Origin: Anaerolineae bacterium
GTDB taxonomy: Bacteria > Chloroflexota > Anaerolineae > Fen-1058
Assembly (NCBI GenBank): GCA_035292585.1
Contig: DATDPU010000148.1
Span: forward strand, 4,097-68,096
DNA length: 64,000 nucleotides
Direction: 5' to 3'
Shown here: in pieces, positions 895 to 29,194 of the stretch
Position numbering within the stretch: position 1 is the stretch's first letter
Layout of the letters: each line of letters opens with the position of its first letter
The notes under the pieces: generated by a model
What the model was told of the DNA's origin: nothing
What the model saw: only the letters and a program-made list of their open reading frames with translations
Databases searched by the model: none
Program-made: the position numbers and the translations under genes

Positions 895-897
895 GAG

Positions 898-976
898 CTC
901 ACCTTACGCCGCCGCCGTTCAACTTCGCTCGAAGCCCGCGTCCGCGCGGTCGGGGAGCCAACGGCGTAAGGTGAGT
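898..976 (+). repeat. REP-A element, short (79-bp) variant with terminal inverted repeat CTCACCTTACGC...GCGTAAGGTGAG
   Basis: The arms are exact reverse complements. The interior (GAAGCCCGCGTCCGCGCGG..TCGGGGAGC) is shared with the copies at 2648-2826 and 53491-53620 (inverted). Confidence 0.75.
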
Positions 977-989
977 TAGGAGTACGGGA

Positions 990-2618: not shown

Positions 2619-2647
2619 CGCTGGTGATGACCCGCTACGCATTCTTA

Positions 2648-2826
2648 CTCACTCACCTTACGCCGCCGCCACCGGTCAAATCCTGCTCGAAGCCCGCGTC
2701 CACGCGGGCGTTGGTGGTTCCGAACCGACCGCGACGGAGCACCCCCTCCGCTGCGCTACGGGGGCTATAGTGCACCCGCCGCAGGCGGGTGGGACGCGGT
2801 CGGGGAGCAAACTGCGTAAGGTGAGT
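2648..2826 (+). repeat. REP-A element, long (179-bp) variant
   Basis: Same termini (CTCACTCACCTTACGCC ... CTGCGTAAGGTGAGT) as 898-976, with about 100 bp of extra GC-rich hairpin-forming interior. Confidence 0.75.
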
Positions 2827-2908
2827 TATTAATCCGGGCGCGCCGAAAAGTAGTGAAGCGTTTTAGGGTTGAACCCTTGCATCTGCTGGTGACCGGGAGA
2901 CCGCCGTA

Positions 2909-4318
2909 ATGGTGACAAGACAATGGGGTCGGCGGAACAGTCATAAGCCGCTGACTGATCCCAGCGACCTTTCGGAAGCAGGCCAGTCGCCTTTGTCAAG
3001 GCGACTCATAATGATCTGGCTGGTGGGCACGCTGGTCCTATTGCCAGTGGATCTTATTTCGTTGCCGCTCAATATGAACCTGGTGGATTTTTGGATCTTG
3101 ATGGGGCTGCCTATTCTTGTGTTATCTTTTACCCGCGCGCATCACGTCATAAGTTTTCCTTACACGATTGCCATATGGATTATTTTGCTTGCCAGTTTCG
3201 CCAGCACCTTTGCCGCTCCGGCCCCACAGAACAGCCTGGCGGTTATCGTGAAGGAGGTCTATGTATATATTTGGTTTGTCACGCTAACGGCGATTCTTGC
3301 CAAACTAAACGCCAGGGACTTGCGTCGCATACTGGTCGTTTGGAGTGGGATGGTGTTTGTGCATGGGTTCGTGATTGTGGCTCAATTCGTATCGCCAGAT
3401 TTCTGGCGGCTCACGGCTAGACTTGCCGGAAGTCTAAAGGACTTTGAAATTTACCGTCCCTCCGGTTTGTTCGTGAATGCCAATTCGGCCGCTATTTTCC
3501 AATTGCTTGGTTTTGTACCGCTCGTGCTGGCGAGTCCTTCCAGAAAAAGAGCTATGATCTTAGGGACAGTGTTATTGCTCACGATGCTGGCTACAGGCTC
3601 GATGGGTGCAGCCGTGGCATTCACGGCCGGCCTGGCCGTCGCCATACTGGCAATCTTCTTGAGTGGACACCTGGCCCTTATCCTCAAGATGTTTGTGCGG
3701 TCAGCTATCGCTATCGCGCTTCTCGGAGGGTTACTCTACCTCGTTGTCAGCCGCAATGAGCGCTTTCAGGAGCACATCGAACGCATTCTGGTTGGACGCG
3801 CTGATCGATCATCCGAAGGGCGCTTTGACCTGTGGCAGCGAGGACTCGACGCGTTTCTTGACCAAAACACGTTCTTGTGGGGCGTTGGCCCGGAGAATTT
3901 CAGGGAGGTGGACCCGGCGGAGACAGACAATCAGTTACACAATGATTTGCTGGCTTTCTCAGTGGAGCGCGGATTGTTAGGCGCTCTGGGTTTGGCGCTA
4001 TTTGCCGTAATCGCCGTGAGCAGAGCGGCCTATATGGTGGTGATACGTAATAAATATCCGGCTCGGGCGCAACTCACCGTCGTCGTTTTCCTGGCAGCCA
4101 GTATAGCGGCCAGCGTCGAATCGCTAACCCATCAGGTTTTCCATTTTCGTGAATTGTGGTTGGTCTTGGCCTTCCAAGAGGCCATGCTCTATCGGATGAC
4201 CATTTCCGAAAGTGGGGTGAAATCAACGCTTCGCCCGCGGTACGCGACGCCAAACCCGCGGCCTGGGCTTGTCGTACAGCCGCATGTTATCGAGGATAGG
4301 TTACATCTTGCAGATTGA
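2909..4318 (+). CDS. O-antigen ligase/polymerase family membrane protein (Wzy-like)
   Basis: About 10 predicted TM helices. Wzy_C-type loop with DRSSEGRFDLWQ ... NQLHNDLLAFSVERGLLG. AT-richer than neighbouring genes. The start may lie downstream (MIWLVG). Confidence 0.7.
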   Translation: MVTRQWGRRNSHKPLTDPSDLSEAGQSPLSRRLIMIWLVGTLVLLPVDLISLPLNMNLVDFWILMGLPILVLSFTRAHHVISFPYTIAIWIILLASFASTFAAPAPQNSLAVIVKEVYVYIWFVTLTAILAKLNARDLRRILVVWSGMVFVHGFVIVAQFVSPDFWRLTARLAGSLKDFEIYRPSGLFVNANSAAIFQLLGFVPLVLASPSRKRAMILGTVLLLTMLATGSMGAAVAFTAGLAVAILAIFLSGHLALILKMFVRSAIAIALLGGLLYLVVSRNERFQEHIERILVGRADRSSEGRFDLWQRGLDAFLDQNTFLWGVGPENFREVDPAETDNQLHNDLLAFSVERGLLGALGLALFAVIAVSRAAYMVVIRNKYPARAQLTVVVFLAASIAASVESLTHQVFHFRELWLVLAFQEAMLYRMTISESGVKSTLRPRYATPNPRPGLVVQPHVIEDRLHLAD

Positions 4319-4322
4319 ACTC

Positions 4323-5099
4323 ATGGGTTGCACGAGCGCCGGAAAGTCTACCCTGACCCGAAGCATACTTCAGGTCTGCCGCGAGCAAGGGGTTGACGTT
4401 TTTCGGCGTGACGATTTTGTACTCAAGCAAATCCGGTTGAATGGGATCAAAGGCCATCTGCCGCGAACGCTCCTGGTGGATGCGCTGGCCTTATTTGCCT
4501 GCTTGCTGACCTGGCGCAACAATCTCAAGTTCTATCGTTTTGCGACTCGACTTCTTTTTCAGTTGCCCATCGCCCTGTTTGATAAACTCAATTTGCTCAG
4601 AAACGTTCTCAAGAAGATAGGCATCCACGAAATCATCCGTTTCCGCAGCACCGACCAGCAGGTCATCCTGGTGGATGAGGGTGTTTTGCAAGCAGCTCAT
4701 AATCTCTTTGTGCATAGCGCTGTCCAGGTGGAAATGGAACACTTAGCGACTTTTGTCAGGTTAATACCGTTTCCAGATGTGATCGTTTACATCCGGCCGC
4801 CTGAATCACGATTGATCGACCGAACAATGATCCGGGGACACAAGCGCATTCCAGACCGCTCTTATAACAACGTAGTCCGTTTTGTCAAACAGGCCGTGGC
4901 TACTTTTGATCAACTGGCACAAAATCCCAGCGTTGAGAGCAGGTTGGTGGTTGTCGATGGCGGACCGGCTGTCGCCTTTGCCGCAAGCTGTCAAGACGAC
5001 CCAAAATTCAATCTCGCTCTAAGACTCATTCGAACGGGTGTCACCGCTGGCATGACCAATACTTTCACCGAAACTACCCCGCGCGAGGCCTACACATGA
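4323..5099 (+). CDS. P-loop NTPase/kinase-like protein of unknown function
   Basis: Walker A GCTSAGKST at the extreme N-terminus and a Walker B-like VILVDEG. In-frame TTG 4308 is an alternative start. The stop overlaps the next start (ATGA at 5096). Confidence 0.6.
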   Translation: MGCTSAGKSTLTRSILQVCREQGVDVFRRDDFVLKQIRLNGIKGHLPRTLLVDALALFACLLTWRNNLKFYRFATRLLFQLPIALFDKLNLLRNVLKKIGIHEIIRFRSTDQQVILVDEGVLQAAHNLFVHSAVQVEMEHLATFVRLIPFPDVIVYIRPPESRLIDRTMIRGHKRIPDRSYNNVVRFVKQAVATFDQLAQNPSVESRLVVVDGGPAVAFAASCQDDPKFNLALRLIRTGVTAGMTNTFTETTPREAYT

Positions 5100-7234
5100 A
5101 GAAGCTTGCAGCTCTTTTCCTACTCGTCTCATTCGCCTGGGCTTCAACCGCCCTGGCCCAAAACACCTTCACCTTTACGGCCGTCGCCGACGCGCGGGTG
5201 CTGGAGTCGAACCCGACCACCAACTATGGCGCCCTGAGTCGGCTCGACGTGGATAGCCCCGGCCAAGAAAGCTACCTCCGCTTCACGGTGAGCGGGGTGA
5301 GCGGCGCGGTGCAGAGCGCCACGCTGCGGCTGTTCGTGAGCAGCGGCTCGACGAATGGGCCCTCGCTGTATCGCACCAGCGAGAGTTGGACGGAAACCGG
5401 GCTTACCTGGAACAATCGGCCGGCGCCCACCAGCGGGGCGATTGCCGACGTCGACGCGATGGTGTCCAATGGCTGGGCAGAGTACAACGTCACCGCGCAG
5501 GTCACCGGCAATGGCACGTACAGTTTTGTGTTGTTGCCCGACAGCACCGACGGCGTCAGGTTCGAGTCACGCGAAGGGAGTCCTCCGCCGCAGCTGGTGC
5601 TGACCTTCGCTTCCGGGCCGACGCCCACGCCAACTCATACGCCGATTCCACCCACGCCGACCAATACGCCGACTAACACGTCAGTGCCGCCGACGCCGAC
5701 GCCGACCAATACGCCGACTAACACGTCAGTGCCGCCGACGCCGACACCGACCAACACACCAAGCAATACGCCGACACCAGGGCCTACTGCCACGCCGACC
5801 AACACGCCGCTTCCGCCAACGCTGACTAACACGCCGACAAATACGCCCACACTCACGCCCACGCCCATCAGCACGGCGGTCAGCCTGGCGCCTGTGGCCG
5901 ACGCGCGGGTGCTGGAGTCGAACCCGACCACCAACTACGGCGCCCTGAGTCGGCTCGACGTGGATAGCCCCGGCCAAGAAAGCTACCTCCGCTTCACGGT
6001 AACCGGGGTAAGCGGCGCGGTGCAGAGCGCCACGCTACGGCTGTTCGTGAGCAACGGCTCGACGAATGGGCCATCGCTGTACCGCACCAGCGACAGTTGG
6101 ACGGAGACCGGGCTTACCTGGAACAATCGGCCGGCGCCCACCAGCGGGGCGATTGCCGACGTCGGCGCGATGGTGTCCAATAGCTGGGCGGAGTACAACG
6201 TCACCGCGCAGGTTACCGGCAATGGCACGTACAGTTTTGTGTTGTTGCCCGACAGCACGGACGGCGTGACCATCAACTCACGCGAAGGGAGCTCTCCGCC
6301 GCAGCTGGTGCTGACCTTCGCTTCCGGGCCGACGCCCACGCCAACTCATACGTCGACGCCAGGCCCCACTAATACGCCGACCAATACGTCAACGCCAGGA
6401 CCTTCTCCGACGCCGACCAACACACCAGTTTCTGGGGGCGTGGTATTCGTCGGGGCAGGAGATATCGCGGACTGTAGTCGGGTGCAGGACGAACAGACGG
6501 CTCAGTTGCTCGATAATATCCCGGGTGCCGTGTACACCGTCGGGGATAATGCCTACCCCAGTGGCTCGGCTGCTAACTTCAACAACTGTTATGAGCCTAC
6601 CTGGGGCCGTCATAAGGCCCGGACCCGTCCAGCCGTCGGCGATAATGAATACTCTACTTCTGGGGCCTCAGGCCATTTCAATTACTTTGGTGCGGCCGCG
6701 GGTAACCCGAATGAAGGCTATTACAGCTATAACGTTGGCAGTTGGCACATCATCGTCCTCAACAGCAATTGTTCACAGGTTGGCGGCTGTCGCCCGAATG
6801 ACCCCCAGGGACAATGGCTTCAAGCTGACTTGGCGGCGAATCCGAGCGTGTGTACCCTGGCCATATTTCACGAGCCGCTGTTCAGCTCAAAGGGTGGTGA
6901 TGCAGACCTGCGAGATTTTTGGGCGCCACTCTACGGGGCCGGCGCAGAAATCGTTCTGGGCGGTCACCGCCATATGTATGAGCGCTTCGCCCAGCAAAAC
7001 CCGGATGGGGCGGCGGATCCGGGGCGCGGCATTCGTCAATTCGTGGTGGGCACGGGTGGCTCGAGCCTTACCTCCTCTCCCAGTTCAGTTGCCCCCAACA
7101 GTCAGGTCAGAAACAACACGACTTATGGTGTTCTGAAGTTCACGCTGCATCCCAGCAGCTACGACTGGCAGTTCATTCCCATCGCCGGCCAGACGTTTAC
7201 CGATTCAGGAAGCGCCCAGTGTGTGACGCCATAG
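5096..7234 (+). CDS. Secreted protein: 2 x DNRLRE/CBM96-like domain, PT linkers, C-terminal calcineurin-like metallophosphoesterase
   Basis: Signal peptide MKKLAALFLLVSFAWASTALA. Two DNRLRE-type units (VADARVLESNPTTNYG..LRLFV..WTETGLTWNNRP). Metallophosphoesterase motifs GDIADC, GDNAY, HEPLFSS, GGHRHMYERF. Confidence 0.8.
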   Translation: MKKLAALFLLVSFAWASTALAQNTFTFTAVADARVLESNPTTNYGALSRLDVDSPGQESYLRFTVSGVSGAVQSATLRLFVSSGSTNGPSLYRTSESWTETGLTWNNRPAPTSGAIADVDAMVSNGWAEYNVTAQVTGNGTYSFVLLPDSTDGVRFESREGSPPPQLVLTFASGPTPTPTHTPIPPTPTNTPTNTSVPPTPTPTNTPTNTSVPPTPTPTNTPSNTPTPGPTATPTNTPLPPTLTNTPTNTPTLTPTPISTAVSLAPVADARVLESNPTTNYGALSRLDVDSPGQESYLRFTVTGVSGAVQSATLRLFVSNGSTNGPSLYRTSDSWTETGLTWNNRPAPTSGAIADVGAMVSNSWAEYNVTAQVTGNGTYSFVLLPDSTDGVTINSREGSSPPQLVLTFASGPTPTPTHTSTPGPTNTPTNTSTPGPSPTPTNTPVSGGVVFVGAGDIADCSRVQDEQTAQLLDNIPGAVYTVGDNAYPSGSAANFNNCYEPTWGRHKARTRPAVGDNEYSTSGASGHFNYFGAAAGNPNEGYYSYNVGSWHIIVLNSNCSQVGGCRPNDPQGQWLQADLAANPSVCTLAIFHEPLFSSKGGDADLRDFWAPLYGAGAEIVLGGHRHMYERFAQQNPDGAADPGRGIRQFVVGTGGSSLTSSPSSVAPNSQVRNNTTYGVLKFTLHPSSYDWQFIPIAGQTFTDSGSAQCVTP

Positions 7235-7289
7235 CCCAACCGGACGCCGGCGGCCAAATGACGACGCGGCGGACAAGAAAGGTAGCGAG

Positions 7290-8198
7290 ATGTCAAGCGA
7301 ACTGAAGCCACCCATTATCATTCTTGGCAACACGCGTTCAGGCACGACGATCGTGCAGAGGGTAATCGCCACGCATCCGGATATCGTGGAATGGTATGAG
7401 CCTCGCACCCTGTGGCTCTATGCCGATCCTGGAAGACGACACGATGAGTTCGACGAAAGGGACGCGACCGACAAAGTCAAACGGTATATCCGGGAACAAT
7501 TTCTGAAGTATCAGAAGCAGCACGGAAATTGCGTGGTCATGGAAAAGACGCCCGCAAATATTCTGAAAATTCCGTACGTGCGGGCGATCTTCCCTGAGGC
7601 GACCTACCTTTTCATGGTCAGGAATCCTTTTTCCTTTATCAGTTCCGTTGAGATGAAGTGGCAGGCCAATACTGTCTCAAGCAAGGGAATCGGCCGGCGT
7701 CTGAGGTCTACGCCCATCATCCAACTGCATCACTATGCCAGCCGCCTGATCATGCAACATCTCGAAAAACGAGTCTTGCGGCGCAAGTACCTGTCACTTT
7801 GGGGCCCGCGCTACCAGGGCATGGATCAGGACCTGAAAACGCACGATCTTCTAACGGTCATCGCCAGGCAGTGGTCTGTATGTTCGAGCCAGGCCGAGCA
7901 GGCTCTGGCCCGGTTTGATACCGGCCAGGTGTTGCGGTTAAGATACGAGGACTTTGTAGCAGACCCGATCTCCGACCTGGAGCGCATCTGCGCCCACTGC
8001 GGGTTGGCGATGACCCCCGACATGGTGAAGGCCGCAAACGAGTGGGTCAAACCCGATCGACAACTTAAATGGCAGCGGTTTGATCCGCGCGACCTGGCCC
8101 GAATTCTTCCAGAGATTAGCGACGAGATGCAGCGACACGGCTACGAAGTTCCCCCGGAGATTGCCCAGGCCATACGGCTGAGCGAACCTGTGAGGTAA
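7290..8198 (+). CDS. Sulfotransferase family protein
   Basis: 5'-PSB loop ILGNTRSGTTIV and a 3'-PB-like VRNPFSFISS, the PAPS-binding motifs of cytosolic-type sulfotransferases. Confidence 0.8.
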   Translation: MSSELKPPIIILGNTRSGTTIVQRVIATHPDIVEWYEPRTLWLYADPGRRHDEFDERDATDKVKRYIREQFLKYQKQHGNCVVMEKTPANILKIPYVRAIFPEATYLFMVRNPFSFISSVEMKWQANTVSSKGIGRRLRSTPIIQLHHYASRLIMQHLEKRVLRRKYLSLWGPRYQGMDQDLKTHDLLTVIARQWSVCSSQAEQALARFDTGQVLRLRYEDFVADPISDLERICAHCGLAMTPDMVKAANEWVKPDRQLKWQRFDPRDLARILPEISDEMQRHGYEVPPEIAQAIRLSEPVR

Positions 8199-8201
8199 AC
8201 C

Positions 8202-10427
8202 ATGAACTTTCGCGATGTTCAACCGCAATTTAAGGTACTTGTGGACCAGCGACAGTCACGCCGGACCACGCCGGAAATTCTGTGTACGCTGGGACCGGCA
8301 TCGCTTGACCGGCGAACGATTCAACGCCTCGAGCAGAGCGGTGCGACGCTGTTTCGCATCAATCTTTCTCACATCAAGCTGGTGGACTTGCCACGGATGA
8401 TCCAGACGATTCGTGACGCGACGCAAGTCCCTATCTGCCTGGATACCGAGGGGGCGCAGGTCCGCACGGGCGACTTTGTCGACGGCAGCATCCATTTGCG
8501 CGATAACACGGTGGTGCGGGTCCATTTCCGGCGCGTTCCCGCCGACGACAAGAACTTCAACTTATATCCCTCCGGTATTGCGACGCTCTTGCAGCTGGGA
8601 GACTTTGTCAGCATTGACTTCAATTCGGTTCTGGTACAGGTCATTGCCAAGGACAACGATTGCGTCTCGATGCGCGTGCTACAAGGCGGACTCGTGGGCC
8701 AGAACAAGGCCGTCACGGTCGAGCGGGACATCCCGCTGCCGCCCTTAACGGACAAGGACCAGGCGGCCTTGAAGGTCGGCTGCGAAATGGGCCTGTCTCA
8801 TTTCGCGCTCTCCTTTGCCAATCGCGGTGAGGATGTCCAGCAGCTGCGCCGCCTCGTTGGCGAGGGCGCCTTCATCATTTCCAAGATTGAATCGCGCAGC
8901 GGTCTGGAGAATCTCGAGGCGATCGCGGCGGCCTCGGACGCCCTGCTGATCGACCGGGGTGATCTGTCCAGGCAAATCCCCATCGAGTTGCTTCCTCAGA
9001 CACAGAAGAGCGTGATCCAGCGCGCCCAGGCCGCCGGTCGTCGCGTCTATGTCGCCACCAACCTGCTCGAGTCGATGGTCTCGACGCCCACCCCCACGCG
9101 GGCCGAGGTCAACGACATTTACAACACGCTGGCGGATGGCGCCGATGGCCTGGTTCTCGCCGCCGAGACGACGATCGGCAAATATCCCATCCAGTGTGTG
9201 TCCATGGTCAGTAAGGTCATCCGCGCCTTCCAACACGACGAGCCTGACGACGGCCAGTTTTATCCACTCAATGCCATCTCGCTGCTCATCGAGCCGCATG
9301 GGGGGCGGCTGGTGCACCGCGAAGCGGGTCCCGCCGACCTGGATGCTATCGAGCGTCTGCCGCGCCTGGCCATCCCCGAGCGGGAACTCATGGACTGCGA
9401 GCAGTTCGGCTACGGCACCTACTCCCCACTCACCGGGTTCATGACGCACGAAATGCTCGATTCGGTTCTGGATACGTACCGTCTGCCCGGCGGCGAAGTC
9501 TGGACGTTGCCGATCCTGCTGCAAGTCAACTCGGCAGACATCGCCGCCATTTCGCTTGGGGAGCGCGTCGCCCTGACCGACGCACAGGGAATCGTTCACG
9601 CCCTGCTCGATGTTTCCGAGGTCTACCGCTACGATCTCGAAAGTCTCGCCGCGCGGATGTACGGGACGACCAGCCGCAATCATCCCGGCGTCGCCAGGCT
9701 GATGCGCCGGGGCGACTGCTTTTTGGGTGGCGATGTGACGCTCGTCCAACCGCTGGCCTCCCCCCTCCGGCATTACCTGCTCACGCCGACACAGACCCGC
9801 TTCATCTTCACGCGGCTGGGCTGGTCGCAAGTCGTTGCGTTCCATAGTCGAAATCCGGCGCACCGCGGGCACGAGTCGATCCAGCTACAGGCCTTAGAGC
9901 GCACCGGCGCAGATGGGATTTATATCAACCCCGTGACCGGGCCGAAAAAACCGGGTGACTTCTTGCCCGAGCCGATCCTGCTCAGTTACCAGACGCTGCT
10001 CGAGTTCGGCTGCTATCCGAAGGGCAAGGTCGTCCTGGGTAGTTTTTTCACCTATTCGCGCTACGCGGGACCGCGCGAGGCGGTCTTTACGGCGCTGTGT
10101 CGCAAGAACATGGGCTGCAGTCATTTCATCATCGGCCGCGACCATACGGGAGTCGGCAGTTTCTATCCTCCCAACGCCAATCGCGAGTTGTTTGAGTCCC
10201 TCGGCGACATGGGTGTCAAGCCCGTGTTCTTTGACACGGTGGGCTACAACAGCCAGACTGGCAACTACGAAGTCGATCAGGGTCAGCCGCTCTCGATGAT
10301 CTCGGGCACCGAGGTACGCGAGACCCTGCGGGCCGACAGACGCCTGCCGGACTGGTTTATGCGCGACCTGGTTCAGGAAGTGCTGCTGGCGGAAATGAGA
10401 AGCGGCAAATCGATGTTCTACGAATAG
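8202..10427 (+). CDS. Fusion protein: pyruvate-kinase-like barrel (A+B domains) + sulfate adenylyltransferase (ATP sulfurylase)
   Basis: Residues ~25-345 show PK blocks ILCTLGPAS, FRINLSH, LDTEGAQVRTG, SKIESRSG, IDRGDLS, ATNLLESM..PTRAEVNDI, AAETTIGKYP, and the PK C-terminal domain is absent. Residues ~350-741 are a full Sat: LIEPHGGRLV, VAFHSRNPAHRGHE, YAGPREAVF, IIGRDHTGVG. The frame is open with no internal stop. Confidence 0.85.
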   Translation: MNFRDVQPQFKVLVDQRQSRRTTPEILCTLGPASLDRRTIQRLEQSGATLFRINLSHIKLVDLPRMIQTIRDATQVPICLDTEGAQVRTGDFVDGSIHLRDNTVVRVHFRRVPADDKNFNLYPSGIATLLQLGDFVSIDFNSVLVQVIAKDNDCVSMRVLQGGLVGQNKAVTVERDIPLPPLTDKDQAALKVGCEMGLSHFALSFANRGEDVQQLRRLVGEGAFIISKIESRSGLENLEAIAAASDALLIDRGDLSRQIPIELLPQTQKSVIQRAQAAGRRVYVATNLLESMVSTPTPTRAEVNDIYNTLADGADGLVLAAETTIGKYPIQCVSMVSKVIRAFQHDEPDDGQFYPLNAISLLIEPHGGRLVHREAGPADLDAIERLPRLAIPERELMDCEQFGYGTYSPLTGFMTHEMLDSVLDTYRLPGGEVWTLPILLQVNSADIAAISLGERVALTDAQGIVHALLDVSEVYRYDLESLAARMYGTTSRNHPGVARLMRRGDCFLGGDVTLVQPLASPLRHYLLTPTQTRFIFTRLGWSQVVAFHSRNPAHRGHESIQLQALERTGADGIYINPVTGPKKPGDFLPEPILLSYQTLLEFGCYPKGKVVLGSFFTYSRYAGPREAVFTALCRKNMGCSHFIIGRDHTGVGSFYPPNANRELFESLGDMGVKPVFFDTVGYNSQTGNYEVDQGQPLSMISGTEVRETLRADRRLPDWFMRDLVQEVLLAEMRSGKSMFYE

Positions 10428-10479
10428 CGCCCCATGCTCAGGCAGCCGCAGAGCAGCCTATAAGGATTCGGAGAGAAAC

Positions 10480-11817
10480 TTGAATACACCTGTCCGCAAC
10501 GCGCCTTCCGGCTTAAGTCTACGAGCCAATTTCTCATGGACATTCATCGGCAACACCGTTAATGCTGGTTCCTGGTTTTTAATGACAGCCGTGCTGGCCA
10601 AACTTGGCTCGCCTGAGCATGTCGGCCAGTTTGCGCTGGGGTTGGCGCTGACTGCGCCGATCTTCATGTTTGCTACTTTGCGCTTGCGCGATGTTCAGGC
10701 CACGGATCATAAGCAAGAGTATCTTTTTGGCGACTATTTCGCGATGCGCCTGATTACGACCGGCCTGGCCCTGCTGGCTGTGGTGGGGATGGTCGTCGTT
10801 TCAGGTTTCGAATTGGAAGTGTCGCTGGTTATACTGGCGACAGCGATGTCCAAAGCGGTGGAAGCGATTAGTGATGCTTTTTATGGCCTCTTCATGCAGC
10901 AGGAACGATTGGACCGGATTGCCAAGTCCATGATCATCAAGGGACCGTTGTCGTTGCTCGGTCTTGGCCTCGGCTTTTATCTGACGGGCAGCGTTTTCTG
11001 GGGGGTGATCGGTTTGACTCTGGCGCGGGCGGTGATGACGGTAGGTTATGATATTCGAAACGCGACCTTGACTCTGAATCCAGCCGCGCAGCTAATGGGT
11101 CATATCATTCCAAAAGATTTTCCGGGGCCGCGCTGGAATCGCGTCATCCTGACCAGATTGTTCTGGCTTACCTTACCCTTGGGCCTTGTAACCATGTTGA
11201 TCTCATTCAATGCCAATGTTCCCCGTTATTTCATCGAGGGATATCTGGGTGTGCATCTGCTCGGCATCTTTGCCGCCATAACCGCTTTCCAAAAGGCCGC
11301 CCCGACGGTGGTACAGGCGCTGGGGCGCTCGGCCAGTCCGCGATTAGCCAAGTACTATGCCGCAGACAACATCAGGGCGTTTCGTAAACTCACGTTTCGA
11401 CTCATCGGGATTGGCGCCCTGTTAGGTAGCGCCGGACTCCTGGTCGCTTTGGTTGCCGGACGTGAACTTCTGACTTTGTTCTACGGAGCGGAGTACGCGC
11501 TGCCTGGACTGTTTGTCTTGGTCATGATAGACGCCGGACTCGACTACATATCAACGATGCTTCTTTTTGTCATCACCTCGGCCAGGTATCTGAGAGTACA
11601 GTTACCCTTGTATCTGCTCACGACCGCTACCGTAGCTCTGGGTTGTTACCTACTCGTTCCGTCTAGCGGGTTGCAGGGAGCTGCTCTGGCCATCATTATT
11701 TCGGAGATTGTTCGGCTGGTGGGCAGTCTCGCTGTTGTTTGGCACGCGCTGCGTTCGCTCCACCGGCACTCCCGGACGCCGGCCCCCCAGATTTCAGCCT
11801 ACAAACTTCAGGGGTAG
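10480..11817 (+). CDS. Oligosaccharide/polysaccharide flippase (Wzx, MOP superfamily)
   Basis: 445 aa with about 12 TM helices throughout. Position in a Wzy-dependent locus. TTG start preceded by GGAGAG. Confidence 0.75.
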   Translation: MNTPVRNAPSGLSLRANFSWTFIGNTVNAGSWFLMTAVLAKLGSPEHVGQFALGLALTAPIFMFATLRLRDVQATDHKQEYLFGDYFAMRLITTGLALLAVVGMVVVSGFELEVSLVILATAMSKAVEAISDAFYGLFMQQERLDRIAKSMIIKGPLSLLGLGLGFYLTGSVFWGVIGLTLARAVMTVGYDIRNATLTLNPAAQLMGHIIPKDFPGPRWNRVILTRLFWLTLPLGLVTMLISFNANVPRYFIEGYLGVHLLGIFAAITAFQKAAPTVVQALGRSASPRLAKYYAADNIRAFRKLTFRLIGIGALLGSAGLLVALVAGRELLTLFYGAEYALPGLFVLVMIDAGLDYISTMLLFVITSARYLRVQLPLYLLTTATVALGCYLLVPSSGLQGAALAIIISEIVRLVGSLAVVWHALRSLHRHSRTPAPQISAYKLQG

Positions 11818-11823
11818 GTTTAA

Positions 11824-13356
11824 ATGCTAAAAGAGCCTTTTCCTACGCACCAGGAGATTACCTTGACCGCAACATTGGTCGATGGCCTCGTAGCTACCTT
11901 CAATCGGGAAGAGATTGTGTATTGCCATTGGAAAAGTAACATTGATCTGGCCCAGGCCACGGCCGGCAAGACCGATCTCGATCTACTTGTCGATCGGAAA
12001 TCGTTGGCGCCGGCGCTTACCATTCTTTCGCGTCTCGGATTCAAGGCCGCCGTTGCCCGCTGGGGAGCAAATCCGCCGAGTATCTGCCATTTTTACGGTC
12101 TCGATCCAGACACCCACGCGCTGATTCATGTCCATCTTTTCACCCGGGTGCTCACGGGTGAATCCTATGTGAAAAGTCATCTGTTTCCTTTTGAGTCGAT
12201 GCTGCTAGAGAATGCGACCTATTCTGATCGAATTCGGGTAACCTCCAAGCCGGCCGAGCTCGTCTTGTTTACTCTGCGAATGTTCGTCAAGTACGGCTCG
12301 TTGCTCGATCTCGTAGCTCTGCGGCGAAAGTCTGAGAGCCTCAGAGCAGAGGTCCGCTGGCTGCAAGACGGCGATGATCTGACCGAGGCGTTGTCCTTGT
12401 TGAAGCAACATTGCCCGGTGATAGACGAGCAATTGTTTGTCACGTGCGTTGAGACCCTCAATAGCCATCGTCCGCTCATTAGCAGAATGATATTGGCCCA
12501 ACAAATCCGGCGACGGCTTAAGGTGTATGCCAAGTACGCCTTTTTCAAGCGGCTCCTGGCCTATACTCAGGTGCTGTGGGCTGAAGTGCAGCGGCGTCTG
12601 GGAACAAAACAGAAGAATAAGGTATTACGGGCAGGGGGGAGCGTCATTGCTTTTGTCGGCGCGGATGCAACCGGTAAATCCACGCTCGTCACAGAGACGG
12701 GGCGCTGGTTAGGTGATACGTTCACCGTCAACGTTATCCACACCGGCAAACCACCGTCATCCTGGTTGACAACCCCGGTCAATCTTGTCTTGCCGCTGGT
12801 TCGCCGCCTAACATCTTCACGCCGTGAGAAGCATCTTGAAAGTCAGACCGCCTCAAGCGGTTCGGAGCCGGCCTGGCACGAATTCAAGGGTCTGTCTTCT
12901 TTACCCTATGCGTTGAGAGCCGTTACCCTGGCCTGGGATCGGCAGCGGCTCATACTCAAGGCCAGACGTCTGGCCGCAGAGGGTGAAATCATTGTCTGCG
13001 ATCGCTATCCGTCAAGGATAACCGGGGCCATGGACAGTCCTCGGTTAGTGGAAGCGCCGCTCAAGAGGGGGCTGGTGGCGACAATCTATAATCGCCTGAC
13101 CCGGCTTGAAGAACGACTTTACAGGCAAATTCCGCCCCCCGACATTGTCCTCAAGCTCAAGGTGTCACTCGCCACGGCCAAAAGACGAAATCGTGACCGC
13201 AACGCGCAAGATGGCGATGCTTACCTGGAAGGTCGTCACCGCCAGAGCCAGGAATGGCATATGCCTGGGACAAGGTATGTATACGATATAGATACCGAGC
13301 AATCTCTGAAAGAGACCATTCGTTGTGTCAAGCAGGCCATTTGGGAATCACTCTAG
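11824..13356 (+). CDS. Two-domain protein: nucleotidyltransferase-like N-terminus (NTP_transf_5-like) + thymidylate-kinase-like P-loop C-terminus
   Basis: N-terminus: GKTDLDLLVD, LSRLGF, IHVHLF pattern. C-terminus: IAFVGADATGKSTLV (Walker A), VCDRYPS (DRY-type motif), PPDIVLKLKVSLATAKRR (lid-like). Confidence 0.55.
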   Translation: MLKEPFPTHQEITLTATLVDGLVATFNREEIVYCHWKSNIDLAQATAGKTDLDLLVDRKSLAPALTILSRLGFKAAVARWGANPPSICHFYGLDPDTHALIHVHLFTRVLTGESYVKSHLFPFESMLLENATYSDRIRVTSKPAELVLFTLRMFVKYGSLLDLVALRRKSESLRAEVRWLQDGDDLTEALSLLKQHCPVIDEQLFVTCVETLNSHRPLISRMILAQQIRRRLKVYAKYAFFKRLLAYTQVLWAEVQRRLGTKQKNKVLRAGGSVIAFVGADATGKSTLVTETGRWLGDTFTVNVIHTGKPPSSWLTTPVNLVLPLVRRLTSSRREKHLESQTASSGSEPAWHEFKGLSSLPYALRAVTLAWDRQRLILKARRLAAEGEIIVCDRYPSRITGAMDSPRLVEAPLKRGLVATIYNRLTRLEERLYRQIPPPDIVLKLKVSLATAKRRNRDRNAQDGDAYLEGRHRQSQEWHMPGTRYVYDIDTEQSLKETIRCVKQAIWESL

Positions 13357-13610
13357 TGCTTCGACAACTTGAAGTTGCATAGTTCCTGCCGCAGTTGCAG
13401 TGCGCAGCCGCCCCGTGGGCCTGCGGCGGACGGCAGTGCAACTGCCGTCCCAACCCCGCAGAATTAGGCGGTCGGGGTACTAGTGCTTCGACAATTTGAA
13501 GTTGCGTAGTTCCCGCCGCAGTTCATTGCCTTCTAAAGAGGGCGGCGGCCTGCCGACGATCGCAGCGAAGAGGGTTGTGCCATCCGAACCCCGCAGAAGT
13601 AAGTGGTCAA
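13353..13610. repeat. Two tandem ~127-bp modules sharing CTAGTGCTTCGACAAYTTGAAGTTGCRTAGTTCCYGCCGCAGTT heads
   Basis: The head sequence occurs at 13353 and 13480. Both modules end in CCGAACCCCGCAGAAKTA-like tails. Module 1 contains the palindromic word GCAGTTGCAGTGC / GGCAGTGCAACTGCC. Confidence 0.7.
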
Positions 13611-13643
13611 GGGCTAAGTACCCTACCACAGGGAAAATGACGG

Positions 13644-13772
13644 GTAGCTTAGCCCCTGGTGGGCGTCTGATGGGCACGAGTTTCGATGAGGCATTCGTCC
13701 TGGCCTACTCAACCAGGTAGTTTAGCCCCTGGTGGGCGTCTGACGGGCACGAGGCCCTACGCTACGCCCATC
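13644..13772 (-). repeat. Two REP-B copies (GTAG..TAGCCCCTGGTGGGCGTCTGAYGGGCACGAG)
   Basis: Copies at 13644-13680 and 13717-13772 are near-identical. Both are the reverse complement of the 29120-29190 copy. Confidence 0.75.
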
Positions 13773-13819
13773 AAAATCACTGTGGCGGAGCACTAGCGCC
13801 ATGAGAAAGGAAACTAAAT

Positions 13820-14923
13820 GTGAAAATTGCTTTCATAATCACCCGGTCGGATGACATCGGTGGGGCGCAGATCCACGTCAGGGATTTGTCGACGGCGCTC
13901 AGGGCAGCCGGCCACGACGCGGTGGTCCTCGCCGGCGCCAACGGTGTCCTCGCAGACGAACTGCGCGCGCACGGCGTTCCATATTATTCCCTACGTTATC
14001 TGGCCCGAGAAGTTGGACCACTCCACGACGTCCGCACCGTCTCGGAACTTCGCGAGACGCTGCGCGAAATCCGGCCTGACATCATTTCCACCCATTCTAC
14101 CAAGGCCGGGTTCATCGGCCGAATCGCCGGCAAGACGCTCGGCATCCCCACCCTGTTCACGGCGCACGGCTGGGGGTTCACCGACGGGCGCCCGCCTCTC
14201 CAGGCGTTCGCGTTCTGGGCGGTCGAACGGGCAACCGCGGCGTGGGCGGCGCGGATCATCACGGTGTGTGAGTCGGATCGCACGGCTGCCGTTCGCGCGC
14301 GTGTGACAGCCAGCGATCGCCTGGTAACCATTCACAACGCCATGCCCGACATCGACACAACACTGCGGGCCAGGCCGGGCAATTCGCCGGCGCAGTTAGT
14401 GATGGTCGCTAGACTTTCGCGCTGGAAAGACCAGCCAACCCTGCTGCATGCCCTTTCGGGCTTGAAGGCTCTGGATTGGCAGCTCGAGTTGGTTGGCGAC
14501 GGTCCCCTGCGTGGGCCGCTCGAAGAGCTGGCCCAAAGTCTGGGCCTCACGTCGCGGGTGACCTTCCTCGGCTTCCGCCGCGACGTTCCCGAGCGGATCG
14601 CCGAAGCGCAAGTGTTTCTGCTCATCAGCAAGTGGGAGGGCTTCCCGCGTTCCATACTCGAGGCCATGCGCGCTGGTCTGCCCGTGATTGCATCCGCTGT
14701 GGGTGGGGTTCGGGAATCTGTGGTGGATGGGACAACCGGCTTTGTGATTCCGCGTGGAGATGCAGTCCGTTTACGCGAATGCCTGCGCCAGCTCATCACG
14801 AGCTCCGAGCTGCGCGTCAGTATGGGCGAAGCCGGCCGCGCCCGTTATGAGGAAATGTTCACCTTCGATCGCCTGGTTGAGCGAACCACGCAGGTGTATG
14901 AATCGGTCCTGGGAAGGAGATAG
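13820..14923 (+). CDS. Glycosyltransferase family 4
   Basis: GTG start giving VKIAFIIT. GT-B fold signature EGFPRSILEAMRAGLPVIASAVGG (E-x7-E). Confidence 0.85.
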   Translation: MKIAFIITRSDDIGGAQIHVRDLSTALRAAGHDAVVLAGANGVLADELRAHGVPYYSLRYLAREVGPLHDVRTVSELRETLREIRPDIISTHSTKAGFIGRIAGKTLGIPTLFTAHGWGFTDGRPPLQAFAFWAVERATAAWAARIITVCESDRTAAVRARVTASDRLVTIHNAMPDIDTTLRARPGNSPAQLVMVARLSRWKDQPTLLHALSGLKALDWQLELVGDGPLRGPLEELAQSLGLTSRVTFLGFRRDVPERIAEAQVFLLISKWEGFPRSILEAMRAGLPVIASAVGGVRESVVDGTTGFVIPRGDAVRLRECLRQLITSSELRVSMGEAGRARYEEMFTFDRLVERTTQVYESVLGRR

Positions 14924-14928
14924 CAGCC

Positions 14929-15825: not shown

Positions 15826-15858
15826 CGCTCGACACGTCACGTATGCGGGAGGCGCAAG

Positions 15859-16470: not shown

Positions 16471-16487
16471 TTCACACGGATATCGAA

Positions 16488-28996: not shown

Positions 28997-29046
28997 AGTT
29001 CAGGGTTGACGGGGGGCTGCTAGCAGTCGGTCCATTTCATTGGTGG

Positions 29047-29190: not shown

Positions 29191-29194
29191 CATT

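What the first reader, a model, noticed from the sequence alone, without database searches (positions are those of the whole stretch)
8202..10427. Pyruvate-kinase-like domain fused to a complete ATP sulfurylase in a polysaccharide locus
One uninterrupted 741-codon frame joins a PK A/B-barrel to a full sulfate adenylyltransferase. The PK part keeps recognisable catalytic blocks (KIE, RGDL, ETT.GKYP, FRINLSH, LDTEG) but lacks the regulatory C-domain. The Sat part has HSRNPAHRGHE and GRDHTG. In the known bifunctional PAPS synthases, ATP sulfurylase is fused to an APS kinase. Here a PEP-dependent phosphotransferase fold sits in that position, and I saw no canonical CysC-type APS kinase, CysN GTPase or pyrophosphatase in the locus. 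Two hypotheses follow. (a) The PK domain regenerates ATP locally from PEP, pulling the unfavourable sulfurylase/APS-kinase reactions. (b) It phosphorylates APS directly with PEP as donor. I am not aware of this architecture having been characterised.
Basis: partly seen in the sequence, partly recalled or inferred. Interest (0 to 1): 0.8.

Follow-up and report, generated by a model that had tools for sequence, protein, structure and literature searches.

The report
Pyruvate-kinase module fused to ATP sulfurylase
A real, widespread but apparently unstudied bacterial enzyme joins a special pyruvate kinase lacking the usual regulatory (C-terminal) domain to ATP sulfurylase, most likely so that phosphoenolpyruvate can recycle ADP to ATP while the cell makes the activated sulfate (PAPS) needed to sulfate a surface polysaccharide.

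Summary
ORF 8202..10427 (+) encodes 741 aa: pyruvate-kinase (PK) A/B barrel (no C-domain), PUA-like domain and ATP-sulfurylase (Sat). It starts 3 nt after a PAPS-type sulfotransferase gene in a Wzx/Wzy polysaccharide cluster. It is not an assembly artefact: the best 120 protein clusters and 119 species genomes from at least 8 phyla carry the same architecture.

The PK half belongs to a distinct subfamily. Its catalytic residues are near-invariant, down to about 35% identity. It carries a nine-position signature, partly in the A-B hinge that sets K+ dependence, and it lacks the C-domain. This subfamily always sits with PAPS-synthesis genes, as PK-Sat, PK-Sat-APS kinase, PK-APS kinase, or as a stand-alone PK directly upstream of an APS-kinase gene.

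It supports (a): PEP-driven removal of ADP and regeneration of ATP for PAPS synthesis.

The 64-kb window has no CysC, CysD/N, pyrophosphatase or CysQ, so its APS kinase is presumably encoded elsewhere. The neighbouring 510-aa P-loop protein is thymidylate-kinase-like, not CysC-like.

I found no paper describing this family. Verdict: a new variant of a known kind, of moderate-to-high interest.

The parts
8202..10427 (+). PK-Sat fusion gene (741 aa)
   Evidence: ORF. Three Pfam domains. Best 120 homologous clusters share the architecture.
8274..9200 (+). Pyruvate-kinase A (TIM barrel) and B (lid, about residues 87-173) domains, residues 25-333. No C-domain.
   Evidence: PF00224 E=7.6e-68, full model coverage. 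AF2 pLDDT 80-96. Foldseek top 50 are all PKs, about 330-350 columns at rmsd 3-5 A. Residues R52 N54 S56 H57 D81 R88 K169 K228 E230 D254 T286 E322 are invariant in 74/74 fusions.
8445..8468 (+). A-B hinge loop T82-E83-G84-A85-Q86-V87-R88-T89 (rabbit PK 113-120), carrying three subfamily-signature substitutions (K114E, P116A, E117Q)
   Evidence: Invariant E83, A85 and Q86 in 74/74. Conserved in 99, 80+20(S) and 106 of 110 deep representatives. Role of the loop from PMC8835810.
9201..9287 (+). Inter-domain linker, residues 334-362 (end of the last PK helix plus a variable segment)
   Evidence: Variable at 345-357, conserved at S360, L362 and P365. pLDDT dips at 347-353.
9288..9749 (+). PUA-like N-terminal domain of ATP sulfurylase, residues 363-516
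   Evidence: PF14306 E=3.4e-42. Aligned to 8a8d and 1v47.
9771..10388 (+). ATP-sulfurylase catalytic domain, residues 524-729, with F-H-S-R-N-P-A-H-R-G-H (547-557) and G-R-D-H-T-G (645-650)
   Evidence: PF01747 E=1.1e-62. Motifs kept in about 68-71 of 74 fusions. Same 'FH[TS]RN...GRDHTG' variant in unfused relatives.
7290..8198 (+). Sulfotransferase (302 aa), translationally coupled to the fusion: stop TAA at 8196-8198, GAGG at 8192-8195, fusion ATG at 8202
   Evidence: Sulfotransfer_3 E=1.3e-28. 5'-PSB 'TRSGTT' and 3'-PB 'VRN..S' aligned to TPST2. Junction sequence. Within 500 bp of the fusion (directly upstream in the window's clade) in 26 of 63 loci with enough flank.
10480..11817 (+). 445-aa hydrophobic protein, putative Wzx-type flippase (inferred)
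   Evidence: No Pfam hit. Hydrophobic sequence. The same family is present in 8 related loci. Wzx (Polysacc_synt) genes occur in related loci L079 and L158.
11824..13356 (+). 510-aa protein: N-terminal nucleotidyltransferase-like domain plus C-terminal thymidylate-kinase-like P-loop domain. A neighbour, not shown to be part of sulfate activation.
   Evidence: AF2 pLDDT 85.8. Foldseek top 50 all thymidylate kinases. Profile vs PDB hits TMK at 2e-5, including the CDRY motif. Matches CysC only over the P-loop. Also present in glycan loci without PK-Sat.
28..17336 (+). Surrounding Wzx/Wzy-type polysaccharide biosynthesis cluster
   Evidence: Epimerase, Wzz/P-loop BY-kinase, Wzy_C, CBM96 protein, GT4, methyltransferase, hexapeptide acyltransferase, polysaccharide deacetylase.

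Best explanation
The gene encodes a bifunctional enzyme that supplies activated sulfate to the sulfotransferase encoded 3 nt upstream, which sulfates the polysaccharide made by this Wzx/Wzy cluster. The C-terminal half is an active ATP sulfurylase (ATP + sulfate -> APS + PPi). The N-terminal half is an active, unregulated pyruvate kinase of a dedicated subfamily (PEP + ADP -> pyruvate + ATP). Its job is to take up the ADP released by APS kinase (APS + ATP -> PAPS + ADP) and return ATP to the pathway. The net reaction becomes sulfate + ATP + PEP -> PAPS + PPi + pyruvate, and APS kinase is protected from its dead-end enzyme.ADP.APS complex. Shown here: the domain architecture, conservation of the catalytic residues, PAPS-type motifs in the sulfotransferase, and the family-wide fusion or adjacency of this PK subfamily with APS kinase and Sat. 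Inferred: both halves are catalytically active, ADP from APS kinase is the physiological PK substrate, and the window organism's APS kinase is encoded outside the 64-kb window.
For: (1) Architecture and operon. (2) In the 74 full-length fusions, 12 catalytic or ligand residues are invariant. In 110 PK domains sampled down to about 35-40% identity, R72, N74, H77, D112, R119, D295 and E363 (rabbit numbering) are invariant, and S76, K206, K269, E271 and T327 are kept in 100-109 of 110. This indicates a working NDP + PEP active site. (3) Rosetta-stone evidence: the same signature PK occurs as PK-Sat-APS_kinase (P0275, P0279, P0284), as PK-APS_kinase without Sat (P0340; loci L081, L082) and as Sat-PK in reverse order (P0329). 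(4) Operon evidence: a canonical APS kinase (PF01583, E=1.7e-32) lies within 500 bp in 21 of 63 loci with enough flank, typically 0-33 bp downstream of PK-Sat. Stand-alone signature PKs of about 320 aa are followed at 0-13 bp by an APS-kinase gene in Gammaproteobacteria and SAR11 genomes. L123 has PK | Sat | CysC as three separate genes. (5) The upstream sulfotransferase keeps the 3'-phosphate-binding motif, so PAPS rather than APS is needed. (6) Experimental precedent: PAPSS1 in vitro made practically no PAPS without PK/PEP, because ADP builds up and the enzyme.ADP.APS dead-end complex forms (PMC9885120). (7) The missing C-domain fits a PK released from glycolytic allosteric control.
Against: There is no biochemical data for any member. 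The window, and about 16 related loci of its clade with at least 5 kb of flank on each side, have no APS kinase within 10 kb, so the proposed ADP source is not in the operon here. The subfamily's nine conserved active-site-proximal substitutions are not needed for plain PK chemistry and could mean altered substrate or cation use. Six of 74 fusions, and about 13 of 73 deep representatives, have lost the Sat catalytic motifs while PK stays intact; a simple 'feed ATP to Sat' model does not explain this, although coupling to APS kinase still could. Housekeeping PK and adenylate kinase could in principle do the same job, so the selective advantage of a dedicated module is inferred.
Confidence: 0.55

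Rival explanations
1. The PK domain is itself the APS 3'-kinase, using PEP as phosphoryl donor and replacing CysC.
For: No CysC in the 64-kb window or within 10 kb in the window's clade. The sulfotransferase needs PAPS. The PK subfamily has conserved non-canonical residues near the active site.
Against: PKs with the identical signature are fused to, or directly followed by, canonical APS kinases (P0275, P0279, P0284, P0340; L136-L148; about 21-30 PK-Sat loci), so the function would be redundant there. No active-site position distinguishes CysC-linked from CysC-less members. The residues that bind the NDP phosphates and the phosphoryl-transfer Lys (R72, R119, K206, K269) are conserved, which fits a terminal-phosphate acceptor and not a ribose 3'-OH. 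L134, a window-type locus, has a CysC 4.3 kb away.
Confidence: 0.05
2. The PK subfamily has shifted nucleotide specificity and works in a salvage loop. One example would be phosphorylating 3'-phospho-ADP (made from the sulfotransferase by-product PAP by an NMP kinase) to 3'-phospho-ATP, which Sat then converts directly to PAPS, bypassing CysC and CysQ.
For: The enzyme order NMP kinase -> PK -> Sat is chemically consecutive. A thymidylate-kinase-like protein is encoded two genes downstream and in 13 of 16 loci with an adjacent sulfotransferase, and in none of the 17 CysC-containing loci among the 44 analysed. Both halves carry subfamily-specific substitutions: PK signature, Sat Q->H and A->T.
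Against: The TMK-like family also occurs in Wzx/Wzy loci with no PK-Sat, and in some with no sulfotransferase (L158-L160), so it is a glycan-locus component. The co-occurrence statistics are not phylogeny-corrected, and L134 has both a TMK-like gene and CysC. The same PK signature is found with canonical CysC. Members with a dead Sat cannot run the loop. I know of no precedent for 3'-phospho-ATP as a Sat substrate.
Confidence: 0.05
3. The PK domain is mainly regulatory or structural: a PEP/ADP sensor or oligomerisation scaffold that tunes Sat, rather than a flux-carrying enzyme.
For: Fused accessory domains of sulfurylases can be non-catalytic; the fungal Sat carries a degenerate APS-kinase-like allosteric domain (my own knowledge, structures 1i2d and 1m8p listed). 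Within this family the Sat half itself has become a pseudo-enzyme in some lineages, showing that domains here can persist without catalysis.
Against: Every catalytic, metal and substrate ligand of PK is under strict purifying selection across phyla, in fused and unfused forms. PK is the more conserved half, with 58 of 309 invariant columns against 31 of 367 for Sat.
Confidence: 0.1
4. The PK domain feeds ATP directly to the fused Sat by local channelling, independent of APS kinase, for example to sustain sulfation when PEP is high and ATP is low.
For: PK-Sat is the commonest architecture, about 110 of 150 representatives. Independent fusions of ordinary PKs to Sat exist (P0311 with PK_C; P0329 in reverse order).
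Against: Sat does not produce ADP, so PK has no pathway-derived substrate without a kinase step. PK-APS-kinase fusions and operons that lack Sat, and PK-pseudoSat members, point to the kinase step as the core partner. More ATP does little for the unfavourable Sat equilibrium.
Confidence: 0.2

Closest known systems
Bifunctional PAPS synthases (Sat-APS kinase fusions, e.g. Aquifex aeolicus 2gks, human PAPSS1 1x6v)
   Same: A multi-enzyme polypeptide built around the same ATP-sulfurylase (PUA-like + catalytic) module and dedicated to making PAPS. The Sat half matches these at E=4.6e-58 (2gks) and 7.8e-28 (1x6v). Relatives of the window protein (P0275, P0279, P0284) do carry the C-terminal APS kinase.
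   Different: The window protein has no APS-kinase domain. It carries an N-terminal pyruvate kinase instead, which is not known in any characterised PAPS synthase. It scores 245 bits against a 669-bit cut-off for the NCBIfam bifunctional model.
Canonical pyruvate kinases (PykA/PykF/PKM; best match P. aeruginosa PykA 7oo1)
   Same: The same A/B-domain fold and all catalytic and ligand residues.
   Different: No C-terminal allosteric/tetramerisation domain. Nine-position signature: T113/E114/A116/Q117 hinge, D293, S298, R/K299, N329, A362/A363 (human PKM numbering for the last six). Neither the E117 (K+-dependent) nor the K117 (K+-independent) type. Always linked to sulfate-activation genes. Below all NCBIfam PK cut-offs.
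Fungal ATP sulfurylase with a degenerate APS-kinase-like regulatory domain (Penicillium chrysogenum 1i2d/1m8p)
   Same: A sulfurylase fused to a second nucleotide-binding domain from the same pathway. It is a precedent for pseudo-enzyme domains in this pathway, comparable to the PK-pseudoSat members.
   Different: In the fungal enzyme the accessory domain is catalytically dead and allosteric (my own knowledge). Here the accessory PK domain keeps every catalytic residue.
CysDN, the GTPase-coupled ATP sulfurylase
   Same: The same logic of coupling a second energy-rich substrate to the thermodynamically poor sulfate-activation pathway.
   Different: An unrelated fold and mechanism: GTP hydrolysis drives APS formation. 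PK would act after the APS-kinase step through ADP/ATP. No CysD/N is present in the window.
In-vitro PK/PEP ATP-regeneration modules used for enzymatic PAPS synthesis (PMC9885120)
   Same: Exactly the proposed chemistry: PK + PEP removes ADP, prevents the APS kinase.ADP.APS dead-end complex and allows PAPS to accumulate.
   Different: That is an engineered mixture of separate commercial enzymes. Here the module appears as a natural, genetically fused or operonic and specialised PK subfamily.

Membership tests
Pyruvate kinase (EC 2.7.1.40) | A-domain TIM barrel with inserted B (lid) domain | tested here: met
   PF00224 covers 5-328 of 328 positions, E=7.6e-68. AF2 and Foldseek: about 330-350 columns, rmsd 3-5 A to E. 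coli, human and Leishmania PK.
Pyruvate kinase (EC 2.7.1.40) | Catalytic, metal and substrate ligands (rabbit R72, N74, S76, H77, D112, T113, R119, K206, K269, E271, D295, T327, E363) | tested here: met
   All present in the window protein. 12 key residues are invariant in 74/74 fusions and near-invariant in 110 deep representatives.
Pyruvate kinase (EC 2.7.1.40) | C-terminal alpha/beta (PK_C) allosteric/tetramerisation domain | tested here: not met
   No PF02887 hit. PK homology ends at about residue 345 and the Sat PUA domain starts at 363.
Pyruvate kinase (EC 2.7.1.40) | Hinge signature E117 (with T113/K114/T120) or K117 (with L113/Q114/hydrophobic 120) | tested here: not met
   The family has T113/E114/Q117/T120. 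Definition of the two classes from PMC8835810 and PMC4374775.
Pyruvate kinase (EC 2.7.1.40) | Curated whole-protein score (NCBIfam TIGR01064 equivalog) | tested here: not met
   269.7 bits against a cut-off of 306.4. Expected for a protein lacking the C-domain.
Pyruvate kinase (EC 2.7.1.40) | PEP + ADP -> pyruvate + ATP activity | not testable with these tools
   Requires an enzyme assay.
ATP sulfurylase / sulfate adenylyltransferase (Sat, EC 2.7.7.4) | PUA-like domain plus catalytic nucleotidyltransferase domain | tested here: met
   PF14306 E=3.4e-42 and PF01747 E=1.1e-62. End-to-end alignment to 8a8d and 1v47.
ATP sulfurylase / sulfate adenylyltransferase (Sat, EC 2.7.7.4) | Active-site motifs (Q)xRNP, HxxH and GRDHAG | tested here: met
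   H548-S-R-N-P, H554-R-G-H557 and G645-R-D-H-T-G650 are present. Variants are Q->H and A->T, shared with a whole Sat subfamily. Six of 74 relatives have lost these motifs; the window protein has not.
ATP sulfurylase / sulfate adenylyltransferase (Sat, EC 2.7.7.4) | Curated score (TIGR00339 sopT equivalog_domain) | tested here: not met
   303.3 bits against a cut-off of 322.95; a narrow miss.
Bifunctional PAPS synthase (Sat + APS kinase) | APS-kinase (PF01583) domain in the same polypeptide | tested here: not met
   No PF01583 hit in the window protein. PRK05537 scores 245 against 669. The domain is present in relatives P0275, P0279 and P0284.
APS kinase (CysC), tested for the neighbouring 510-aa P-loop protein 11824..13356 | PF01583-type fold and sequence beyond the P-loop | tested here: not met
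   hhalign to the CysC family covers only 31 P-loop columns. Foldseek top 50 are all thymidylate kinases. A profile search hits TMK, including the CDRY motif.
PAPS-dependent sulfotransferase, tested for the upstream gene 7290..8198 | 5'-phosphosulfate-binding loop and 3'-phosphate-binding Arg/Ser motif | tested here: met
   'TRSGTT' aligns with TPST2 'PRSGTT', and 'VRN..S' aligns with 'VRD..S'. Sulfotransfer_3 E=1.3e-28.

The most novel reading that the evidence does not exclude
The C-domain-less 'EAQ...DRGDLS[RK]...ATN...AAE' pyruvate kinases may not be ordinary ADP-specific PKs. They could be a new enzyme class with changed nucleotide or cation specificity that makes PEP the true phosphoryl source for PAPS formation. 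Possible routes are acting on a sulfation-pathway nucleotide (a PAP-derived 3'-phospho-ADP, or APS-bound states of APS kinase) or forming an obligate channelled complex with APS kinase. In lineages such as the window's this could allow sulfation without a canonical CysC/CysQ cycle.
Probability: 0.1. Interest if true: 0.9.

Novelty: new variant of a known kind. Interest (0 to 1): 0.65.

Why it matters
PAPS supply limits biological and industrial sulfation of products such as heparin, chondroitin and sulfated exopolysaccharides. Engineers already add PK and PEP to overcome ADP inhibition of APS kinase. Finding that many bacteria in at least 8 phyla, including cultured rhizobia and abundant wastewater, soil and marine lineages, have hard-wired a specialised pyruvate kinase into their PAPS-synthesis genes would do three things. 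It would define a new, easily testable class of PAPS-synthase modules. It would link central carbon status (PEP) to cell-surface sulfation. It would also provide compact natural enzymes for PAPS regeneration. The family additionally marks probable sulfated-glycan loci in phyla where bacterial sulfated polysaccharides are barely known. Finally, it adds a third hinge type (Q117) to the K+-dependent versus K+-independent classification of pyruvate kinases.

Tried and rejected
(1) Assembly artefact or frameshift: rejected, because the best 120 independent clusters and 119 genomes share the architecture.

(2) The 510-aa neighbour as a hidden APS kinase: rejected. Only the P-loop matches CysC, the structure and profile are thymidylate-kinase-like, and the family also occurs in glycan loci without PK-Sat.

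(3) The 276-aa P-loop protein (4269..5099) as CysC: only a weak P-loop hit (E=0.0018). It is related to the 'c9' P-loop family. Not pursued further.

(4) ST-PK-Sat triple fusion in L071/L133 as Rosetta-stone evidence: it rests on a single contig, where TAA has become TCC and about 80 nt are inserted, with the internal ATG kept. I treat it as weak.

(5) Apparent sulfotransferase hits inside Sat domains are cross-hits of my crude HMM and were discarded.

(6) CysC versus TMK-like mutual exclusivity (0/17/13/14, p=5e-4) is not phylogeny-corrected and is contradicted by L134. I did not use it as evidence of functional replacement.

(7) Six literature searches for the fusion (PK + ATP sulfurylase / sulfate adenylyltransferase / adenylylsulfate kinase / Pfam accessions / sulfated-EPS clusters) found nothing relevant. 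PMC13390465 mentions only a Sat/APS-kinase family gene.

(8) The AF2 model of the fusion gave low confidence for Sat residues 550-610 and reports no inter-domain geometry, so it could not address channelling.

(9) I could not map the six non-hinge signature residues onto ligand contacts. The tools give no coordinate access, and the literature search returned only docking papers.

(10) A genome-wide search for cysC in the source organism was not possible with a 64-kb window.
Full report
**1. The observation**

The window holds one uninterrupted ORF at 8202..10427 (+) encoding 741 aa. Pfam finds three domains:
- PK barrel (PF00224), residues 25-333, covering positions 5-328 of the 328-position model, E=7.6e-68.
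- PUA_2 (PF14306), residues 363-516, E=3.4e-42.
- ATP-sulfurylase (PF01747), residues 524-729, E=1.1e-62.

There is no PK_C domain. Against solved structures, the N-terminal half matches pyruvate kinases (7oo1, E=1.4e-63). The C-terminal half matches ATP sulfurylases end to end (8a8d, E=6e-77; 1v47, E=1e-69). An AlphaFold2 model (mean pLDDT 75, PK half 80-96) superposes on E. coli, human and Leishmania PKs over about 330-350 columns at 3-5 A rmsd. This covers the A barrel and the B lid. No solved structure spans both halves.

The fusion is not an assembly artefact. The 120 best protein clusters, from four independent data sources, all have the same three domains at about 741 aa. A scan of species-representative genomes found 119 relatives. 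The linker contains conserved positions.

**2. Context in the window**

Positions 28-17336 form a Wzx/Wzy-type polysaccharide cluster. It contains an epimerase, a Wzz/BY-kinase, Wzy, a CBM96 protein, GT4, a methyltransferase, an acetyltransferase and a deacetylase.

A 302-aa sulfotransferase (Sulfotransfer_3, E=1.3e-28) ends at 8198. Its TAA stop is 3 nt before the fusion's ATG, and a GAGG lies 6 nt upstream of that ATG. Aligned to TPST2, the sulfotransferase keeps both the 5'-phosphosulfate loop (TRSGTT) and the 3'-phosphate-binding Arg/Ser motif. The donor is therefore PAPS, and an APS-kinase activity is required somewhere in the cell.

No CysC, CysD/N, pyrophosphatase, CysQ or sulfate permease is encoded anywhere in the 64 kb.

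**3. Distribution and neighbours**

Carriers of the fusion include:
- Chloroflexota: Caldilineaceae and Anaerolineales, at 76-85% identity. The window most likely comes from this group.
- Actinomycetota: Microthrixaceae, Acidimicrobiia and the cultured Salsipaludibacter albus.
- Many Alphaproteobacteria, including cultured Mesorhizobium, Sinorhizobium/Ensifer and Pseudaminobacter.
- Omnitrophota, Gemmatimonadota, Planctomycetota, Bacteroidota and others.

I clustered all neighbouring ORFs of 80 loci and found two recurrent partners.
- The window-type sulfotransferase lies within 500 bp in 26 of the 63 loci that have enough flank.
- A canonical APS kinase (PF01583, E=1.7e-32) lies within 500 bp in 21 of 63, typically 0-33 bp downstream.
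- 46 of 63 loci have one or the other.

The window's clade has the sulfotransferase and no CysC within 10 kb. Most proteobacterial and Omnitrophota loci have CysC.

**4. Is the PK half a working enzyme?**

In 74 full-length fusions whose PK halves diverge to about 52% identity, twelve residues are invariant: R52, N54, S56, H57, D81, R88, K169, K228, E230, D254, T286 and E322. By motif alignment these correspond to rabbit-muscle PK R72, N74, S76, H77, D112, R119, K206, K269, E271, D295, T327 and E363. Human PKM numbering is +1. The numbering comes from my own knowledge and from PMC8835810.

In 110 PK domains drawn from 50%-identity cluster representatives, reaching about 35-40% identity, these residues remain invariant or nearly so. 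PK is the more conserved half, with 58 of 309 invariant columns against 31 of 367 for Sat. This is the pattern expected of an active enzyme that still binds PEP, Mg2+ and a nucleoside diphosphate.

**5. A distinct PK subfamily**

Nine positions differ from canonical PKs and are themselves conserved: E83, A/S85, Q86, D251, S256, R/K257, N287, A320 and A321.
- They are 74/74 in the close set.
- They are roughly 73-99% conserved in the deep set, and at least 87% at every position once the allowed A/S85 and R/K257 alternatives are counted.
- Ordinary PKs retrieved by the same search read Q/R-P-K/E-A-G-V/N-Q-S/T-G/A at these positions (L154-L157).

Three of the nine (rabbit 114, 116, 117) lie in the short A-B hinge loop at the active-site cleft. 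In the literature, E117 with T113/K114/T120 marks K+-dependent PKs. K117 with L113/Q114 marks K+-independent PKs. Other residues at position 117, including Gln, were reported only in Crenarchaeota, and those tested were K+-independent. The K114Q mutant raises the Km for MgADP from 0.23 to 0.54 mM (PMC8835810, PMC4374775). The family here has T113/E114/Q117/T120, which is a third type.

I could not map the remaining six positions onto ligand contacts with the tools available.

**6. What the subfamily travels with**

This is the decisive evidence. Among the 150 best representatives of a search of 1.84 billion cluster representatives, the architectures are as follows:

| Architecture | Count or example |
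|---|---|
| PK-Sat | about 110 |
| Stand-alone C-domain-less PK, about 320-358 aa | 21 |
| PK-Sat-APS_kinase | 4, plus a fragment of the same type (P0275, P0279, P0284 confirmed by Pfam) |
| PK-APS_kinase without Sat | P0340 |
| Sat-PK, reverse order | P0329 |
| Full PK with PK_C fused to Sat | P0311 |
| Phosphodiesterase-PK-Sat | P0312 |

The APS-kinase-fused forms carry the same PK signature as the window protein.

In genomes, stand-alone signature PKs are followed at 0-13 bp by an APS-kinase gene in four Gammaproteobacteria MAGs and three SAR11 single-cell genomes. L123 has PK | Sat | CysC as three separate genes. L081 and L082 carry the PK-CysC fusion. L134, a window-type Acidimicrobiia locus, has a CysC 4.3 kb downstream.

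So the specialised PK is tied by fusion or adjacency to the enzymes of PAPS synthesis, and especially to APS kinase, the only step that releases ADP.

**7. Mechanism proposed**

The pathway steps are:
- Sat makes APS.
- APS kinase makes PAPS and ADP.
- The PK module converts ADP + PEP to ATP + pyruvate.

The net reaction is sulfate + ATP + PEP -> PAPS + PPi + pyruvate. This removes ADP, which otherwise traps APS kinase in a dead-end enzyme.ADP.APS complex.

There is direct in-vitro precedent. With PAPSS1, PAPS was 'practically missing' without a PK/PEP module and rose markedly with it (PMC9885120). Loss of the C-domain fits a PK freed from glycolytic allostery.

The architecture, residue conservation, gene linkage and PAPS-type sulfotransferase are shown here. 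The activities, the physiological ADP source and the location of the window organism's APS kinase are inferred. I put this explanation at about 0.55.

**8.

Hypothesis (a) is essentially this model and is supported.

Hypothesis (b), PK as a PEP-dependent APS kinase, is disfavoured for three reasons:
- PKs with the identical signature coexist with canonical APS kinase in one polypeptide or operon.
- No active-site position separates CysC-linked from CysC-less members.
- The conserved ligands are those for an NDP's terminal phosphate, not for a ribose 3'-OH.

It is not strictly excluded for the window's clade, because I cannot search the rest of that genome.

**9. The nearby P-loop proteins**

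The 510-aa protein at 11824..13356 was a candidate non-canonical APS kinase. Its model (pLDDT 85.8) matches only thymidylate kinases in the top 50 Foldseek hits. A profile search finds TMKs, including the CDRY motif. Similarity to CysC is limited to 31 P-loop columns. Its N-terminal half has an invariant G..DxD nucleotidyltransferase-like motif.

It co-occurs strongly with sulfotransferase-adjacent loci (13/3/0/28). Among 44 well-flanked loci it never co-occurs with CysC (0/17/13/14). However, these counts are not phylogeny-corrected, and L134 has both. The family, with its partner of about 270 aa, also occurs in Wzx/Wzy loci that have no PK-Sat and in some cases no sulfotransferase (L158-L160).

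I conclude that it belongs to this type of glycan locus, not to sulfate activation. This lowers the attractive NMP kinase -> PK -> Sat 'PAP salvage' idea, which I keep only as a low-probability novel reading.

**10. Unexplained**

Six of 74 fusions (L061, L072, L073, L074, L076, L079), and about 13 of 73 deep representatives, have lost the Sat RNP/HxxH/GRDHxG motifs while keeping all 20 PK catalytic and signature positions. Four of the six have a sulfotransferase directly downstream.

A model in which PK only feeds ATP to Sat does not explain them. Coupling to the kinase step, or a scaffold or nucleotide-binding role for the dead Sat domain, might. The function of the nine signature substitutions is also unknown.

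**11. Comparison and novelty**

The closest known systems are:
- the Sat-APS-kinase PAPS synthases, which share the Sat module but have no PK;
- canonical PKs, which share the fold and chemistry but have a C-domain and a different hinge signature;
- fungal Sat with a dead APS-kinase-like domain, a precedent for pseudo-enzyme domains in this pathway;
- CysDN, which couples energy by a different route;
- engineered PK/PEP regeneration modules.

The window protein fails the curated NCBIfam cut-offs of every PK and Sat equivalog and is named only 'pyruvate kinase' or 'ATP sulfurylase' by its sources. Six targeted full-text searches found no description of it.

I rate it a new variant of a known kind, with interest 0.65. 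It is common, clearly functional and easy to test, and it has biotechnological relevance. Its most likely mechanism, though, is an elegant combination of known chemistries rather than new chemistry.

Noticed in passing
window 11824-13356 (+) and 4269-5099 (+); L158-L160: A 510-aa protein combines a nucleotidyltransferase-like N-domain (invariant G48..D51-L-D53) with a thymidylate-kinase-like C-domain (CDRY motif). A related 276-aa P-loop protein is also present. The pair recurs in Wzx/Wzy polysaccharide loci across phyla, with or without PK-Sat. Its function is unknown; it may be a glycan or nucleotide-sugar modifying kinase/transferase.
   Followed up: partly
L061, L072, L073, L074, L076, L079 (fusion ORFs): These PK-Sat members have lost the catalytic motifs of the Sat half while every PK catalytic and signature residue is retained. 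Four of them have a sulfotransferase gene directly downstream.
   Followed up: partly
L143, L145, L148 (Pelagibacteraceae single-cell genomes); L136, L137, L139, L140 (Gammaproteobacteria MAGs): Stand-alone signature PKs of about 320 aa lacking the C-domain are immediately followed by an APS-kinase-like gene, with no Sat adjacent. In the SAR11 genomes that gene is longer, at 268-273 aa. This is notable in SAR11, which is generally described as lacking assimilatory sulfate reduction (my own knowledge).
   Followed up: partly
proteins P0312, P0311, P0329: Other architectures exist: a type I phosphodiesterase/nucleotide pyrophosphatase domain fused N-terminally to PK-Sat (1151 aa); a complete PK including PK_C fused to Sat (859 aa); and a reversed Sat-PK order (725 aa). 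The last two lack the subfamily signature, which suggests independent fusion events.
   Followed up: partly
L003, L004, L022, L045-L054, L073, L074, L076, L080 (gene just downstream of the fusion or of its CysC): A Na+/H+-exchanger-family membrane protein (PF00999, about 420-460 aa) lies next to PK-Sat in 16 loci. It may be an ion or anion transporter serving the pathway. It is not present in the window.
   Followed up: no
window 5096-7234 (+) and 21813-26108 (+): Two large secreted proteins each carry duplicated CBM96 modules separated by long Pro/Thr-rich linkers (PTPTNTPTNT...). The linker-coding DNA gives a strong local skew: GC skew -0.20 and AT skew +0.26 at 24-26 kb.
   Followed up: no
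window 1-28000 versus 28000-38000: G+C is 0.54-0.64 (mostly 0.55-0.60) across the polysaccharide cluster and rises to 0.65-0.68 from about 28 kb to 38 kb. This is compatible with the glycan locus being a compositionally distinct, possibly mobile, region.
   Followed up: no
L071 / L133 (same contig, about 4106-7315): The sulfotransferase and PK-Sat read as one 1069-aa ORF. The TAA stop is replaced by TCC and about 80 nt are inserted, while the internal ATG is retained. This could be a natural triple fusion or a sequencing error in a single MAG contig.
   Followed up: partly
L045, L048-L054, L080, L084-L111 (Mesorhizobium / Ensifer loci): In rhizobia, PK-Sat-CysC is flanked by a P-loop protein of about 280 aa (family 'c9'), a Wzy-like membrane protein, and a protein combining PqqD with an HPr-kinase-like P-loop domain. 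Some loci are on plasmids (Sinorhizobium chiapasense pA, Mesorhizobium sp. ANAO-SY3R2). This may be a sulfated surface-glycan or peptide-modification locus relevant to symbiosis.
   Followed up: no
L031 13878-16355 (+): An 825-aa protein with PPDK_N and a PEP-utilising mobile domain lies 2 genes downstream of PK-Sat, next to radical-SAM/B12 enzymes and an ABC transporter. It is a second PEP-linked enzyme in a sulfation-associated locus.
   Followed up: no
window 46736-52480 and 53708-57409: Unrelated gene sets are present: a mannosylglycerate-hydrolase-like GH, a GT20 trehalose-6-P synthase, a GT4 and a trehalose phosphatase; then carotenoid genes (amine-oxidase-type desaturase, lycopene cyclase, phytoene synthase).
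   Followed up: no
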